NCBI GenBank assembly: GCA_965215185.1
Contig: OZ244034.1
Location: forward strand, 1,792,001-1,856,000
Direction: 5' to 3'
DNA length: 64,000 nt
DNA from: Acidimicrobiia bacterium
GTDB lineage: Bacteria; Actinomycetota; Acidimicrobiia; Spongiisociales; ZC4RG35
Below are positions 35,432 through 55,492 of the stretch, piece after piece. The translations under genes were made by a program, and so were the position numbers. A model generated the notes under the pieces. The model saw only the letters and a list, made by a program, of their open reading frames with translations, was not told where the DNA came from and did no database searches. Position 1 is the stretch's first letter; each line of letters starts with the position of its first letter.

Positions 35432-35534
35432 CCACGGTAGAGCCTAGGCGGCGGGTCTGCCACCACGGTGGCAAGCGGGGTTTAGAAGCCGTAGTCGGTG
35501 ACGCGGATGATGTTGCAGTCGAGGCCCATGTCGG

Positions 35535-35626
35535 CCCATGAGGATCGTGCCCGTGCGAGTCGAGAACCGCGACCGGCAGCCCCGACACCGGAACCGCTGC
35601 GACGGATGCCGCGCCCCGTCCTGCAC
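35535..35626 (-). pseudogene. IS1595-family transposase zinc-ribbon fragment
   Basis: HPSQRFRCRGCRSRFSTRTGTIL resembles the IS1595 CxxC..FS..TGT motif; no DDE domain. Confidence 0.6.
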
Positions 35627-36061
35627 GTTAACGAGCCTTTTCAGGAGTGGCGTTAGTAGCGGGCCACCGCTCCCCGATCGGCCGCCTGGGAACGAGTGTT
35701 ACGGATGATCATCGCCGGGGCCCGCCATCGTCCGGCCACACAAAATTCGGGCAGGCCGGTGCCCGAAGCGGCCAGATCCTGGGCCATGCCTACTAGTAGG
35801 GAGTGGCCGGAAGCCTCCAATCCCACCGCCTCTGCTCGGAGGGTGATCACCCGTCCTACCGAATCCCGAACATAATAGGGAGTTAGTCCCAAGGCACCGT
35901 CTGGGATTAGGGACTCTTTTGATCTTGTCCCCGAGGTCGGTCGGCGTCAAACGTCAACTCGAGTTTTGTGATGAGCATTCATCGCTCAGTCACTCTTTGC
36001 AGCCACATTGCCCACCGACACCGTGGCCTCTTCATCAGGGGTGTTTTCCCGTCGTCCCCAC
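35626..36061 (-). repeat. ~440-bp module (about 200 bp conserved DNA + recombinase 3' fragment), inverted copy of 43759-44214
   Basis: Shared GGGGACGAC..., CTCGAGTTGAC, GGGGACAAGATCAAAAGAGTC, GHSL..GMAQ.LAASG...SQAADRGAVARY, CCTGAAAAGGCTCGTTAACG. Confidence 0.85.
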
Positions 36062-51989: not shown

Positions 51990-52300
51990 CTACCGGCGCC
52001 GGTCCAGAGCGCCGGTCGACAGCGCCGAGCAGTGACGTATGGAGTCTCTCTTGTAGCGGTCCCAGATCCAAGAAGGCATGTTCAAATCCGCCCGGCCGCC
52101 CAGAATCCGCCCGATGTCGTACTCGAGTTCGACCATGTCCCGCACTTGGCGCCTGCGATGCAGATTCGGATTCATCTCGACCAGGAAATCAGTCTTGCTG
52201 CGCAGACCTTGGGCTCCGGGTTCCATGGCCTCGATGGCGACCTCTACTGCAAGCCGGCGCAGATTGTCGCCGGTACCGGAGTCCGCCGTGCCCGGTCGGA
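51990..52300 (-). pseudogene. Degenerate minimal nucleotidyltransferase-like remnant
   Basis: TDFLVEM...MVELEYDIGRILGGRADL; no GS..DxD motif. Confidence 0.4.
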
Positions 52301-52401
52301 CCCATCATGTGTCCCGCTGGCTCCGAGTCCCCTTGGATTGTTTAGGGACTTATATACCTGGGTAGACAAAGGTGTCACACCCGTTCGGTATTCTGGTTTG
52401 T

Positions 52402-53772
52402 GTGTATTTGGTGCAGACTTTTAGGTTTCCCGCTAAGTGTTCCCCGTCCGCTCATCGTCGGTTGACCGAGGTGTTTTCCATGTCCGCGGAGTTGTATAAC
52501 GCGGCGTTGGAGTCTTGGAGGGGAACATACGCGTGGTGGAGGGAACGCCATCCCGGAGAGGACGACAAGTTCCCCTCGGAGTTGCGGCGTTCGAAGTACG
52601 ACTTGATGAAAGAGTTCACGGGGGTTCGTTCGGATATTCCCGAGTGGGAGCGGCTGGCCGTCCAGGTGGGAAGGGGCGTTGTGTGTCGTTTCGACCGGAC
52701 GGTGAGTTCCTTCTACAAACGCTGCAAAGAAGGGGGCAAGCCGGGGTTTCCCCGCTTCAAGGCGTCCCGCCGGTGGAGGACCATAGAGATCCCGGACGCG
52801 TCGAGTTCCATGGTGGTTCCCCCCAGCACCTCCAAGAACGGTTCTGCTGTGTGGTGGAGACTCGCAGTGAAAGGCGTTCCGCGTCTTCGTTTCCGAGACA
52901 AAGGCCGTAGGTTGGCCGATGCCCTCGGTGGGGGCGCCCGGGTGGTGGAACTACGCGTGGTGAGAACGCCCCTCCGCACAGAGGTACACGTCGTGGTCCG
53001 CCACCCGGAGAGGAACATATCCAGGGTGGAGCCCGCCAATCCCGTGGGGATAGATGTCGGTTTGACGCACCGTTTGACCCTTTCGGGCGGGCAGGTCGTC
53101 CCCCCGCGGAAAGTGGACGCGTCCCGTGTCAAGAGGGCGCAGAGAAAACTGTCCCGTGCCAAGAAAGGCTCCCGCACCAGGGGCAAGAAAGCCCACGCGC
53201 TGGCCAGACTCCACCGCAGAGAAAAAGAGAAAGCCGTCCAGGCTGACTTCCGTCTCGCCCACCACCTCGTCCGCTCCTACGACGGGATAGCCACCGAGGA
53301 CCTCAACGTGACGGGGATGCTCAAATCGAAAAGGTTCTCCAAGAAAATGTCCGAACAACGATGGTCGTCCCTCGGGAACATCCTGGAATACAAAGCCGAG
53401 AAAGCTGGCATTCCATATGAAAGGGTGAATCCCCGCCACACCACCACAGACTGTTCGGCCTGCGGGCACCGACAGGCAATGCCTCTCCGGCAGAGGGTGT
53501 TTCACTGCGGGTCGTGTGGAATGTGCGTGGGTAGGGACGTCAACGCCGCAATCAACATACGCGCCCGGGCTTTTGGCCCGGCGTGGGTAGGGACGTCAAC
53601 GCCGCAATCAACATACGCGCCCGGGCTTTTGTGGTCGGGAGGGACCATCCCCGACGCGATGCGCGTAACAAACTTCGGCTGTAAGACAGGCACGCCCTCC
53701 GGGGAATGCTCTGCGGGTCGACATCGCAGAACAGTATCACCCACGGCGACATCCGTCTACCCAAGTATATAA
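52402..53772 (+). CDS. tnpB: RNA-guided endonuclease TnpB
   Basis: LYNAALE, KPGFPRFK, RuvC-I GIDVG, RuvC-II TEDLN, Zn finger CSACG/CGSCG, RuvC-III RDVNAAINI; likely leaderless GTG 52402 after TATTCT (52389-52394). Confidence 0.93.
   Translation: MYLVQTFRFPAKCSPSAHRRLTEVFSMSAELYNAALESWRGTYAWWRERHPGEDDKFPSELRRSKYDLMKEFTGVRSDIPEWERLAVQVGRGVVCRFDRTVSSFYKRCKEGGKPGFPRFKASRRWRTIEIPDASSSMVVPPSTSKNGSAVWWRLAVKGVPRLRFRDKGRRLADALGGGARVVELRVVRTPLRTEVHVVVRHPERNISRVEPANPVGIDVGLTHRLTLSGGQVVPPRKVDASRVKRAQRKLSRAKKGSRTRGKKAHALARLHRREKEKAVQADFRLAHHLVRSYDGIATEDLNVTGMLKSKRFSKKMSEQRWSSLGNILEYKAEKAGIPYERVNPRHTTTDCSACGHRQAMPLRQRVFHCGSCGMCVGRDVNAAINIRARAFGPAWVGTSTPQSTYAPGLLWSGGTIPDAMRVTNFGCKTGTPSGECSAGRHRRTVSPTATSVYPSI
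53525..53631 (+). repeat. 51-bp perfect tandem duplication in the tnpB 3' region
   Basis: 53525-53575 identical to 53581-53631. Confidence 0.95.
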
Positions 53773-53777
53773 GTCCC
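53632..53777 (+). ncRNA. Candidate TnpB omega/reRNA scaffold
   Basis: Position at tnpB 3' end; hairpins GTCGGG/CCCGAC, ACGCG/CGCGT, TCTGCG/CGCAGA, ACGG/CCGT. Confidence 0.5.
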
Positions 53778-53827
53778 ATTGTTTAGTCAAACTCTGCCGG
53801 TTGGTTCCATCCCCGTCATCCCAGCGG

Positions 53828-55492
53828 TTAGCGTCGCTCCCTGGTGAACGCGATACGGCTGCTATCCGGCAACCACACCGGCCACCGGGCGATGTACGGG
53901 CTGTCAGTAAGCTGCAACAGGTTTCCGCCATCGGCATCCATGACAAATATCGCCCAGTTGCGATTGGTGTCGTTGCTATTGAAAGCGATTCGCGCACCAT
54001 CTGGAGACCACACCGGCCAGGCGTTGTTCAACCATTCTTCTCGACCGCCGCTCCTGTGGGTAAGACGTCGAACATTGTCACCGTCGGCGTCCATTACAAA
54101 GATCTCCCGTCTGCCATCCCGGCTGTCAGCTGCGTAGACAATCCGGGTTCCATCCGGTGACCACTCCGGTTCCCAGTCTTGGGCGTGGACATTGTCGGTG
54201 AGCTGCCGAACAAGGCCGCTGTCGGCCTCCACCACAAAAACCTCGGCATCTCTACCATCTTTTCCGGGGCTTGTGAAGGCAATATGGTCGCCATGGGGCG
54301 ACCAAGCCAGATCCCTCATGAAGGGGTAGCTTCTGTGGGTGGTCAATTGCTTCTGAGCACTGCCATCCTCATCCACGACATAGAGATACCACTCGTTTCC
54401 CATTCCGCCAGCGAAGGCGATCCGCTCGCCATCAGGTGACCAGACAGGATCTGCGCCCTGGTAGGGGTTATAGGTGATCCGTCGTGCTTTCCCGGTATCC
54501 ACATCCACTACAGAAACCTGGCCCAGATGCGCTGCACTGCTCTTGTCGATGTAGGCAAGGCGACTGCTATCAGGCGACCACACGGGGCCGAAGTCCTCCC
54601 AAACCGGATTTGAGGCAAGAAGCCCACCGATCACCCGGATGTTTTCACCACTGGCGTCCATAACGAACAGCTCATCATGGCGGCTGACAAAAGCGACACG
54701 GGCGCCATCGGGCGACCAGGCCGGGTCCCTTCCTTTCACGAGAATCTGTCGCCCACTTCCGTCGGCGTTCACCACAACAATCTCGGATGAATACTCCAAA
54801 TCGTGAGAAGTGATCCGTCCCGGGGCATCGACGGCCGGGGGTAGCCGGACCAGACCCAATGCGCGGGCGAGGAAAGTTGCCATCTGGCCCCGCGTCACCA
54901 AAGCCTCAGGACAGAACCGAGCGGGATTGACAGCACACCCCTGAGTGATCTTTGCCGCCGCCAAGGCATTGATGTGTGACTGGAAGCGACTGTCCTGCAA
55001 GTCGACAAATCCTACTTCTGCCGCAGGCTCAAGTGAGAAGGCGCGGCTGAGGAAGGCCGCCATGTGTTCCCTGGTCACCGGCTCATCAGGACAAAACCTT
55101 TTCGGCTCCACTGCACACCCTTTGGTCACTTTCAGTTCCGCCAATCGCTCCACGTAAGGCGCCCACCACTCCTCAGCATCCACATCCTCGAACCGAGGGA
55201 GACCCTCGGCAGCCGGCTCCCCGCCTTCCAGCGCCCGGACCAGCCACACTGCCACTACCCATCGCTTGATCTCTTCTTCAGGGCAAATCAGATCCTCTCC
55301 ACACTCCGTGCCGTCCAGAATCCCCTCTGCAGCCAATGCATCAAACGCCGATTCGTAATTCCGCCAATTGTCATCTTCAAACCCTTGTGCCTCCACCGGA
55401 CCTGACATCCCCAGCACCAGCACTAAGACGAGCAAGACCGCTCTTCCTCCCGGACCGAGCAACCACACCCCGATCCCCCCAAATCCCCTCAT
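53828..55492 (-). CDS. SLH-domain protein with TolB-like PD40 beta-propeller
   Basis: Signal peptide, FCPDEPVTREHMAAFL, repeated WSPDG. Confidence 0.88.
   Translation of the reverse strand: MRGFGGIGVWLLGPGGRAVLLVLVLVLGMSGPVEAQGFEDDNWRNYESAFDALAAEGILDGTECGEDLICPEEEIKRWVVAVWLVRALEGGEPAAEGLPRFEDVDAEEWWAPYVERLAELKVTKGCAVEPKRFCPDEPVTREHMAAFLSRAFSLEPAAEVGFVDLQDSRFQSHINALAAAKITQGCAVNPARFCPEALVTRGQMATFLARALGLVRLPPAVDAPGRITSHDLEYSSEIVVVNADGSGRQILVKGRDPAWSPDGARVAFVSRHDELFVMDASGENIRVIGGLLASNPVWEDFGPVWSPDSSRLAYIDKSSAAHLGQVSVVDVDTGKARRITYNPYQGADPVWSPDGERIAFAGGMGNEWYLYVVDEDGSAQKQLTTHRSYPFMRDLAWSPHGDHIAFTSPGKDGRDAEVFVVEADSGLVRQLTDNVHAQDWEPEWSPDGTRIVYAADSRDGRREIFVMDADGDNVRRLTHRSGGREEWLNNAWPVWSPDGARIAFNSNDTNRNWAIFVMDADGGNLLQLTDSPYIARWPVWLPDSSRIAFTRERR

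What the first reader, a model, noticed from the sequence alone, without database searches (positions are those of the whole stretch)
52337..53785. Intact TnpB packaged in a TIR + 8-bp-TSD (DDE-type) transposon
Seen: tnpB with all three RuvC acidic residues and the Zn finger fills a 1433-bp unit. The unit has 23-bp terminal inverted repeats (one mismatch) and a perfect ATTGTTTA duplication on both sides, and no transposase is inside. Established: IS200/IS605 (HUH) and IS607 (serine) elements, the usual TnpB hosts, lack long TIRs and do not make such TSDs. GG-initiated TIRs with 8-bp DRs typify DDE families such as IS1595, IS1 and ISL3, and IS1595 is known to carry passenger genes. Inference: a non-autonomous DDE cassette has captured an RNA-guided nuclease, paralleling Fanzors in eukaryotic TIR transposons. 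Near-perfect ends suggest recent movement.
Basis: partly seen in the sequence, partly recalled or inferred. Interest (0 to 1): 0.9.

Follow-up and report, generated by a model that had tools for sequence, protein, structure and literature searches.

The report
TnpB riding an IS1595-type transposon
A gene for the RNA-guided nuclease TnpB, with its guide-RNA scaffold, sits alone inside a small jumping element whose ends and 8-bp target duplication are those of IS1595-family (DDE) transposons, so a transposase encoded elsewhere must move it.

Summary
Window 52345-53777 is a 1433-bp unit with 23-nt inverted ends (22 of 23 complementary) and a perfect 8-bp duplication, ATTGTTTA. It holds only tnpB and a structured 3' RNA region. 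Two related genomes have the same site empty, with one ATTGTTTA-like copy.

The same ends bound about 8 tnpB copies in this genome. They also bound IS1595-family transposase elements in same-genus genomes (one with 21 of 23 end bases identical) and distant TnpBs in Caldilineaceae. This genome has no Y1 TnpA and only two short IS1595 transposase fragments, so the element cannot move on its own.

The general idea is already published. Altae-Tran 2023 (PNAS) describes six DDE-associated TnpB branches with inverted ends, and solo TnpBs moved in trans. My searches found no paper linking TnpB to IS1595. This scan noted a similar case before in another genome (e1-5055290).

One result looks new. In tnpB orientation, the base just 5' of the left duplication is G in 24 of 24 TnpB elements, against 8 of 26 transposase-bearing elements (Fisher p = 9e-8). 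That looks like a target-adjacent motif for cutting empty sites.

The 51-nt internal duplication is missing from contigs of three runs.

The parts
52336..52336 (+). G directly 5' of the left target duplication (candidate target-adjacent motif base)
   Evidence: G at this position in 24 of 24 TnpB elements with a duplication matching at 7 of 8 or better, against 8 of 26 transposase-bearing elements. Background frequency is 0.34. The G is also present in the empty site of G011.
52337..52344 (.). Left copy of the 8-bp target-site duplication ATTGTTTA
   Evidence: A single copy stands at the empty sites of G011 and G002.
52345..52367 (+). Left terminal inverted repeat GGGACTTATATACCTGGGTAGAC
   Evidence: It belongs to the same end family as IS1595 transposase elements L022, L047, L147 and L117.
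52372..53772 (+). tnpB open frame (466 aa). The true start is probably at 52402-52411. The stop codon TAA lies inside the right inverted repeat.
   Evidence: Pfam and NCBIfam hits, PDB relatives, motif positions and candidate start codons, tail frames.
53582..53632 (+). 51-nt insert (second copy of a direct repeat) that adds 17 aa and splits hairpins 1 and 2 of the RNA scaffold. It may be a minority allele or an assembly artefact.
   Evidence: Repeat found. Contigs of X1, X5 and X6 join 53581 to 53633. Sister copies lack it.
53564..53739 (+). Omega-RNA-like structured region that overlaps the 3' end of tnpB and ends in the conserved GCAGAACAGTATCA
   Evidence: 21 consensus pairs, 10 with compensatory changes, 91.7% of cells paired against 36-48% when partners are slid, 0 of 500 shuffles as high. 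The same nucleotides are read in different protein frames in different subfamilies.
53740..53754 (+). Variable 15-nt linker between the RNA scaffold and the right inverted repeat
   Evidence: Alignments.
53755..53777 (-). Right terminal inverted repeat (read on the - strand: GGGACTTATATACTTGGGTAGAC)
   Evidence: 21 of 23 bases equal the ends of the transposase-bearing element L047.
53778..53785 (.). Right copy of the 8-bp duplication ATTGTTTA
53778..53797 (+). Inferred guide segment of the omega RNA (duplication plus right flank). This is not shown.
   Evidence: Inference from canonical TnpB logic and the G at 52336. An RNA-library contig of a related copy runs through the right end and 111 nt into its flank. 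That is weak evidence: contigs only, and DNA carry-over is possible.

Best explanation
Window 52345-53777 is a non-autonomous member of an IS1595-family (DDE transposase) group of transposons. It keeps the family's GGG-initiated inverted ends and inserted with the family's 8-bp target duplication. Its only cargo is tnpB plus the omega-RNA scaffold encoded over the gene's 3' end. It must be moved in trans by an IS1595-type transposase, and none is intact in this genome today. Inferred: the omega RNA reads out through the right inverted repeat, so its guide is the duplication plus the right flank. TnpB would then cut the matching empty site, which carries a G just 5' of the duplication. The occupied site carries C there (the end of the repeat), so it would be spared. 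This would favour retention or copying of the element, as TnpB does for IS605.
For: Shown: inverted repeats and duplication. Empty orthologous sites with one duplication copy in G011 and G002, plus a weak empty-site joint in run X5 (side 21). The same ends bound about 8 tnpB copies in G000, in 3 or more subfamilies only 53-59% identical in protein. All 7 strong PF07282 hits in G000 (E <= 1e-18, of 10 hits) lie in such units. Of 17 TnpB relatives, 13 have both ends. Transposase-bearing elements share the ends and 8-bp duplications: L022 (TTACGTTT), L047 (ATAACTAA, 21 of 23 end bases the same), L147 and L117. Another 26 of 37 show the same. G000 has no Y1 TnpA. It has only two IS1595 transposase fragments of 84-96 aa. 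The RNA scaffold covaries. Basis for the inferred part: G at -1 in 24 of 24 TnpB elements (13 Acidimicrobiia, 11 Caldilineaceae) against 8 of 26 transposase elements (6 of 26 in reverse orientation), Fisher p = 9.4e-8. Of 6 MITEs without the RNA motif, 3 have no G on either side. Background G frequency is 0.34. The right repeat always ends in CCC.
Against: No intact cognate transposase is in G000 or G011, although both hold many copies, so trans-mobilisation is not observed. A one-base motif would be unusually short for TnpB. The scaffold is separated from the flank by 38 nt (linker plus repeat), so the guide position is not established. Elements that were dropped for lacking a clean duplication show G less often: 4 of 7 Acidimicrobiia and 3 of 8 Caldilineaceae. 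The transposase elements with ends closest to the TnpB type (L147, L117, L323, L212) also have G at -1, so a subfamily target preference is not excluded. The window copy carries a 51-nt insert in the scaffold that other data lack. Many sister copies are frameshifted.
Confidence: 0.85

Rival explanations
1. The invariant G 5' of the left duplication is a target-site preference, specific to orientation, of the particular IS1595 transposase subfamily that moves these cassettes. It would then have nothing to do with TnpB.
For: Transposase-bearing elements whose ends are closest to the TnpB cassettes (L147, L117, L323, L212) have G at -1 in transposase orientation.
Against: Transposase-bearing elements overall show 8 of 26 G and a symmetric CC|N8|GG tendency. 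Of 6 MITEs with the same end type, 3 have no G on either side. E_952, which has TnpB-type ends but no tnpB, has C at -1 in the orientation of its RNA remnant. A two-fold symmetric DDE synaptic complex is not expected to read one side only (general knowledge).
Confidence: 0.25
2. The cassettes are moved by something other than an IS1595 transposase. One candidate is the unknown 640-aa protein (P0001), which sits inside the same ends at G000:952908-956420.
For: G000 and G011 have many cassettes and no intact IS1595 transposase. P0001 has no Pfam, NCBIfam or PDB sequence match. It lies in a 3513-bp unit with these ends and the duplication ACAGAAAA.
Against: P0001 relatives were found in none of the 40 other genomes searched, including the six that carry the ends. 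Only 8 clusters exist in the large protein collection. The ends and 8-bp duplications match elements that do encode IS1595 transposases. The P0001 model is poor (mean pLDDT 54) and gave only generic helical matches.
Confidence: 0.05
3. TnpB here uses a fixed internal guide (the linker and/or the inverted repeat that directly follows the scaffold). It would then act on transposon ends or serve another domesticated role, not on flanking DNA.
For: The conserved scaffold ends 38 nt before the element's end. In Caldilineaceae it abuts a 31-nt repeat. Canonical omega RNAs place the guide directly after the scaffold (recalled).
Against: It does not explain the flank-specific G at -1. The linker differs between subfamilies and does not match the left end. 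The RuvC motifs are intact and the elements remain mobile and multi-copy.
Confidence: 0.1
4. This is a one-off nested insertion of an ordinary IS605/IS1341-type tnpB element into an empty MITE.
For: None beyond the prior that most solo tnpB genes are IS200/IS605-type.
Against: The same architecture recurs in 13 of 17 relatives and in a second phylum, always with tnpB filling the unit between the repeats. The short units L027, L029 and L030 are deletion derivatives that keep pieces of tnpB.
Confidence: 0.02

Closest known systems
DDE-transposase-associated TnpB branches (DDE-1 to DDE-6) and solo TnpBs mobilised in trans. Altae-Tran et al. 2023, PNAS (PMC10691335; section 9 read in full, other passages by search).
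   Same: TnpB sits inside elements with inverted terminal repeats. The tnpB 3' end lies close to the transposon end. Solo tnpB units carry the same ends as units that also encode the transposase.
   Different: The main text names only IS630 for DDE-6 and never mentions IS1595 (0 occurrences). A 2026 review (PMC13565253, passages) lists ISL2, IS630 and IS1031. Whether IS1595 is one of the six branches sits in supplements I could not open. I saw no flank asymmetry (G at -1) described in the passages I read.
IS1595-family insertion sequences with passenger genes ('transporter IS'). Siguier, Gagnevin and Chandler 2009, seen only as cited in PMC3129680 (passages).
   Same: GG-initiated inverted ends, 8-bp direct repeats, and a DDE_Tnp_IS1595 plus zinc-ribbon transposase in the autonomous relatives. 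Passenger genes are present (methyltransferase with Mrr or HNH in L022 and L047).
   Different: This unit has lost, or never had, the transposase, and its passenger is tnpB with an omega RNA. Placing it in the ISNwi1 subgroup (ends ggnnatTAT) is recalled, not tested.
IS200/IS605 family, IS1341 group (tnpB-only elements)
   Same: Size about 1.4 kb, a single tnpB gene, and an omega-RNA scaffold over the gene's 3' end.
   Different: IS200/IS605 elements have no inverted terminal repeats and make no target duplications (PMC13565253, passage). This unit has both, and the genome has no Y1 TnpA.
Fanzor1 nucleases inside eukaryotic TIR/TSD (DDE) transposons
   Same: A TnpB-family nuclease rides as a passenger in cut-and-paste-type elements that make target duplications (PMC13565253, passages).
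   Different: This case is prokaryotic, with a compact TnpB of canonical architecture. The relation to Fanzor is by analogy only. No phylogeny was made here.

Membership tests
IS1595 family (DDE), non-autonomous derivative | Terminal inverted repeats of the family's type, shared with transposase-bearing members | tested here: met
   21 of 23 bases are identical to the ends of L047. The first 15 nt are identical or nearly so to L022, L147 and L117, all of which carry a PF12762 transposase.
IS1595 family (DDE), non-autonomous derivative | 8-bp target-site duplication | tested here: met
   ATTGTTTA stands on both sides, and a single copy stands at the empty sites. 24 TnpB units and 26 transposase units have duplications matching at 7 of 8 or better.
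IS1595 family (DDE), non-autonomous derivative | Encodes a DDE_Tnp_IS1595 transposase | tested here: not met
   There is none in the unit. The genome holds only two fragments of 84-96 aa. The unit can therefore only be a non-autonomous relative.
IS1595 family (DDE), non-autonomous derivative | Mobilised by an IS1595 transposase | not testable with these tools
   This needs a transposition assay. Caldilineaceae genomes hold both kinds of unit together. G000 and G011 do not.
IS200/IS605 family (IS1341 group) | No terminal inverted repeats and no target duplication; the ends are subterminal hairpins | tested here: not met
   The unit has 23-nt inverted repeats and an 8-bp duplication.
IS200/IS605 family (IS1341 group) | Y1 (HUH) TnpA available in the genome | tested here: not met
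   PF01797 gives 0 matches in G000. The control search hits 6 of 14 known genomes. The genome is 95% complete.
TnpB / OMEGA RNA-guided nucleases | RuvC D-E-D motifs and a zinc finger | tested here: met
   Naming the catalytic residues rests on recalled motif knowledge.
TnpB / OMEGA RNA-guided nucleases | Structured omega-RNA scaffold over the 3' end of the gene | tested here: met
   Covarying consensus structure. There is no Rfam match.
TnpB / OMEGA RNA-guided nucleases | Flank-derived guide and a target-adjacent motif at the left flank | tested here: inconclusive
   G at -1 in 24 of 24 units, but only one base is conserved and the RNA 3' end is unknown.
DDE-associated TnpB branches of Altae-Tran 2023 | Belongs to one of the named branches DDE-1 to DDE-6 | not testable with these tools

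The most novel reading that the evidence does not exclude
A whole TnpB lineage has co-adapted to a duplication-making DDE transposon. It spans Acidimicrobiia and Caldilineaceae (record titles include sponge-linked names) and reaches 29-40 TnpB matches per genome. Its omega RNA would read through the inverted repeat and take the duplication plus flank as guide. A single G next to the duplication would serve as the target-adjacent motif, while the C that ends the repeat protects occupied sites. Only insertions that land next to a G would then persist. That would explain why 24 of 24 surviving TnpB cassettes have the G while transposase-bearing relatives do not.
Probability: 0.4. Interest if true: 0.75.

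Novelty: new member of a known kind. Interest (0 to 1): 0.55.

Why it matters
TnpB's known role, restoring a scarlessly excised IS605 or IS607 element, does not obviously carry over to DDE elements that leave double-strand breaks and duplications. A 2026 review treats the rarity of DDE-plus-OMEGA elements in prokaryotes as an open question (PMC13565253, passages). This family gives a concrete, abundant, natural test case. It offers defined ends, identified candidate transposases, a covarying RNA scaffold, real empty sites, and an invariant flank base that predicts a target-adjacent motif. If the prediction holds, TnpB-driven retention works with duplication-making transposons in bacteria. That would be the prokaryotic counterpart of Fanzor in eukaryotic TIR elements.

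Tried and rejected
- Rfam scan of 52200-53950 at E <= 1 gave no family.
- The promoter and terminator scan gave nothing above shuffles. One terminator-like hairpin at 52322-52337 abuts the duplication, but other insertion sites show no such pattern.
- P0001 (640 aa) gave no Pfam, NCBIfam, PDB-sequence or Atlas lead. Its AlphaFold model was poor (mean pLDDT 54). VIA-align gave only generic helical-bundle rows with Z under 8. No function is assigned.
- The exact 15-mer scan of genome contigs returned many chance hits in unrelated taxa. Only loci that also encode TnpB or an IS1595 transposase were used.
- The RNA-library run X20 covers only a related copy as contigs, so it does not show transcription or RNA ends.
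- The first HMM search with --max timed out. It was rerun with default filters.
- Two literature calls failed on a comma in a term and were rephrased.
- No paper linking TnpB with IS1595 turned up. 'TnpB'+'IS1595' gave 9 papers (listing seen, one checked by passage, no link). 'TnpB'+'IS1595-like' gave 0. 'ISNwi1'+'passenger' gave 0.
- A fixed TIR-derived guide was considered and set aside, because it does not explain the flank G.

Full report
**1. Observation**

The window has 23-nt arms at 52345-52367 and 53755-53777 (GGGACTTATATACCTGGGTAGAC / GTCTACCCAAGTATATAAGTCCC, one mismatch). ATTGTTTA stands directly outside both arms, at 52337-52344 and 53778-53785. The 23-mer occurs twice in the window against 0 expected in 100 shuffles.

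Between the arms there is one long frame, 52372-53772 (466 aa). It matches Pfam OrfB_IS605 and Cas12f1-like_TNB, NCBIfam guided_TnpB at 3.8e-56, and solved TnpB and Cas12f chains. The motifs GIDVG, TEDLN, RDVNAA, CSACG and CGSCG are all present. The likely start is at 52402-52411, judged from homologues. The stop codon TAA lies inside the right repeat.

A 51-nt direct repeat spaced 56 nt apart (53525-53575 / 53581-53631) adds 17 aa in frame after the RuvC-III motif.

**2. It is a real insertion**

I searched the two flanks separately in the 16 other genomes of the genus. In G011 and G002 the left-flank match ends, and the right-flank match starts, on the same 8 bases. Printed side by side, G011 reads ...CTCCTTGG ATTGTTTA GTCTGCCGG... 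and G002 reads ...CCCTCTGG TTGTCTA GTCAACCTCTGCCGG... Each has one duplication copy and no element.

One contig in public run X5 also joins 52336 to 53778. Only 21 letters lie on the shorter side, so this is weak support.

**3. It is a family**

The 15-nt terminus GGGACTTATATACCT occurs 26 times in the genome at 2 or fewer mismatches. tblastn finds tnpB copies at 8 bounded places plus small fragments. The copies fall into subfamilies only 53-59% identical in protein, yet they share the terminus.

- Duplications differ between copies: TAATCGAA, TAAAGGAG, and TTCAAGAG/TTCAAAAG.
- All 7 strong TNB-domain hits in the genome (of 10 hits) lie in such units.
- The nearest sister of the window copy is 94% identical. 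Two other copies are 98% identical to each other.
- Several copies are frameshifted or deleted.
- The terminus occurs (1 or fewer mismatches) in 7 of 41 genomes searched, counting G000, all in the same genus.
- Short units of 275-572 bp keep pieces of tnpB and are deletion derivatives.
- Of 17 TnpB relatives from genome contigs (49-81% identity, all titled Acidimicrobiia or Ca. Spongiisociaceae), 13 have both ends, 2 have one end and 2 have none at 4 or fewer mismatches.

**4. The ends are IS1595 ends**

In G007, a 2924-bp unit (L022) has ends GGGAATTATATACCTAAGTGGCG and the duplication TTACGTTT. It encodes a protein with Pfam DDE_Tnp_IS1595 (1.8e-37) and Zn_ribbon_IS1595, plus a methyltransferase/Mrr passenger.

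In G009, a 2746-bp unit (L047, duplication ATAACTAA) encodes a 57%-identical transposase and a methyltransferase-HNH passenger. Its ends, GGGAATTACATACTTGGGTAGAC, match the window's right repeat at 21 of 23 bases.

The exact 15-mer also bounds IS1595 transposase units in Rhodospirillales (L147, AAAAGAAA) and Thermoflexus (L117, TAAGGTTA). It bounds tnpB-only units in Caldilineaceae and Anaerolineales whose TnpB is only 25-31% identical to the window's.

Relatives of the transposase are very widespread. Of 600 scanned stretches, 597 encode one. The best 80 come from more than ten phyla of MAGs at 57-100% identity, all but the two closest at 57-66%. Five Caldilineaceae genomes hold 29-40 TnpB matches each and also hold IS1595 transposases. 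One of these is a 2351-bp unit, L323, with related ends and the duplication TATTGGAA.

**5. Non-autonomous here**

G000 has no Y1 TnpA (PF01797: 0 matches; the control hits 6 of 14 known genomes). A six-frame HMM search with a profile of eight of these transposases finds only two fragments, at 2082734-2083021 and at 1827447-1827698 (window 35447-35698). G011, which has 25 ends, has no match either. Trans-mobilisation is therefore inferred, not seen. The helper may have been lost, or may sit on DNA that was not assembled.

**6. The RNA**

From just after the RuvC-III motif to ...GCAGAACAGTATCA (53564-53739), 15 copies share a consensus fold of 21 pairs.

- 10 pairs show compensatory changes.
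- 91.7% of cells are paired, against 36-48% when the partners are slid.
- 0 of 500 shuffles reach the observed score.
- The same nucleotides are read in different protein frames in different subfamilies, so the conservation is at the RNA level.

This is the expected omega-RNA scaffold. No Rfam family matches it. It is followed by a variable 12-17-nt linker and then the 23-nt repeat. In Caldilineaceae the scaffold abuts a 31-nt repeat. Where the guide lies is therefore not settled.

The window's 51-nt insert sits between hairpins 1 and 2. Contigs in runs X1 (depth 42, the best holder), X5 and X6 carry the form without it. The insert may be a minority allele or an assembly artefact.

**7. A flank asymmetry**

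I oriented every unit by its gene and kept only units whose two 8-mers agree at 7 or more of 8 positions: 13 of 20 Acidimicrobiia TnpB units, 11 of 19 Caldilineaceae TnpB units, and 26 of 37 transposase units. Duplicates were removed.

| Group | G just 5' of the left duplication |
|---|---|
| TnpB units | 24 of 24 |
| Transposase units, gene orientation | 8 of 26 |
| Transposase units, reverse orientation | 6 of 26 |

Fisher p = 9.4e-8. The mirror position is not constrained: C after the right duplication occurs in 7 of 24 TnpB units. Transposase units instead lean towards CC|N8|GG.

The background frequency of G before AT-rich 8-mers in G000 is 0.34. Of 6 MITEs that lack the RNA motif, 3 have no G on either side. 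The units that keep the motif (L027, L030, L093) have the G on the expected side. E_952 has TnpB-type ends and an RNA remnant but no tnpB, and it has C there.

Units dropped for lacking a clean duplication show G in 4 of 7 and 3 of 8. Their flanks may not be original.

My reading is that the G is (part of) a target-adjacent motif. The empty site reads G + duplication + right flank. The occupied right junction reads ...CCC + duplication + flank, so it would be spared.

The main rival is a one-sided target preference of the cognate transposase subfamily. The four transposase units with the most similar ends also have the G.

**8. What is known**

IS200/IS605 and IS607 elements lack inverted ends and duplications (PMC13565253, passages). 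Altae-Tran et al. 2023 (PMC10691335, section 9 read) report the following:

- DDE transposases replace the Y1 or serine enzymes in six branches.
- All six DDE-associated branches have inverted terminal repeats.
- The tnpB 3' end lies within 250 bp of the transposon end.
- Solo TnpBs carry ends nearly identical to those of transposase-bearing units, which implies trans-mobilisation.

So the kind is known. IS1595 is not mentioned in that main text (0 occurrences) or in the review's list of ISL2, IS630 and IS1031. My searches found no paper linking the two. The supplements that would settle this are closed. IS1595 elements with passenger genes are established (Siguier 2009, as cited in PMC3129680).

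This scan noted a like case in another genome (e1-5055290). That is not independent evidence.

**9. Verdict**

This is a new member, possibly the first named IS1595 case, of a published kind. It comes with a new and testable flank signal.

Noticed in passing
L009:1001-4513 (G000:952908-956420); homologue at L010:4118-6088: A 3513-bp unit has TnpB-type ends, an omega-RNA 3' remnant and the duplication ACAGAAAA. Instead of tnpB it carries three ORFs on the opposite strand. One is a 640-aa protein (P0001) with no Pfam, NCBIfam or PDB-sequence match and only 8 clusters in the large protein collection. A second copy in the genome is 69-70% identical. Its function is unknown and the structure model was poor.
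   Followed up: partly
window 35447-35698 (- strand): An 84-aa open frame weakly matches the IS1595 transposase profile (E = 3e-5). It is one of only two such fragments in the genome.
   Followed up: partly
window 53525-53631: A 51-nt direct repeat lies inside tnpB and the RNA scaffold. Contigs of three public runs, including the best holder at depth 42, carry the form without it.
   Followed up: partly
G000:1861661-1884228 (just beyond the window's right end): Ends of this family cluster within about 23 kb: a deleted tnpB unit, two further tnpB units, and a pair of ends at 1865160/1870858. That pair's outward flanks are inverted rather than direct copies of one 8-mer, around 5.7 kb of ordinary-looking genes. 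This suggests an inversion between copies.
   Followed up: no
L023 (G007:C17), element 501-2402: A 1902-bp unit with the same ends and the duplication TTGCTTTA carries a longer, 627-aa TnpB-like protein (OrfB_IS605 plus TNB domains).
   Followed up: no
L212-L291: IS1595 transposases 57-66% identical to the query occur in MAGs titled as more than ten phyla (Dehalococcoidia, Binatia, Acidobacteriota, Poribacteria, Rhodothermales, Alphaproteobacteria and others). Most carry 1-3 kb of passenger DNA. Many insertions sit between CCCC and GGGG, which suggests hairpin-loop targets and wide horizontal spread.
   Followed up: partly
L025 (G003:C1:3037690-3047733): Two partial tnpB units in opposite orientation bracket about 7 kb of transporter and other genes between matching ends. 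This may be a composite or a recombination product.
   Followed up: no
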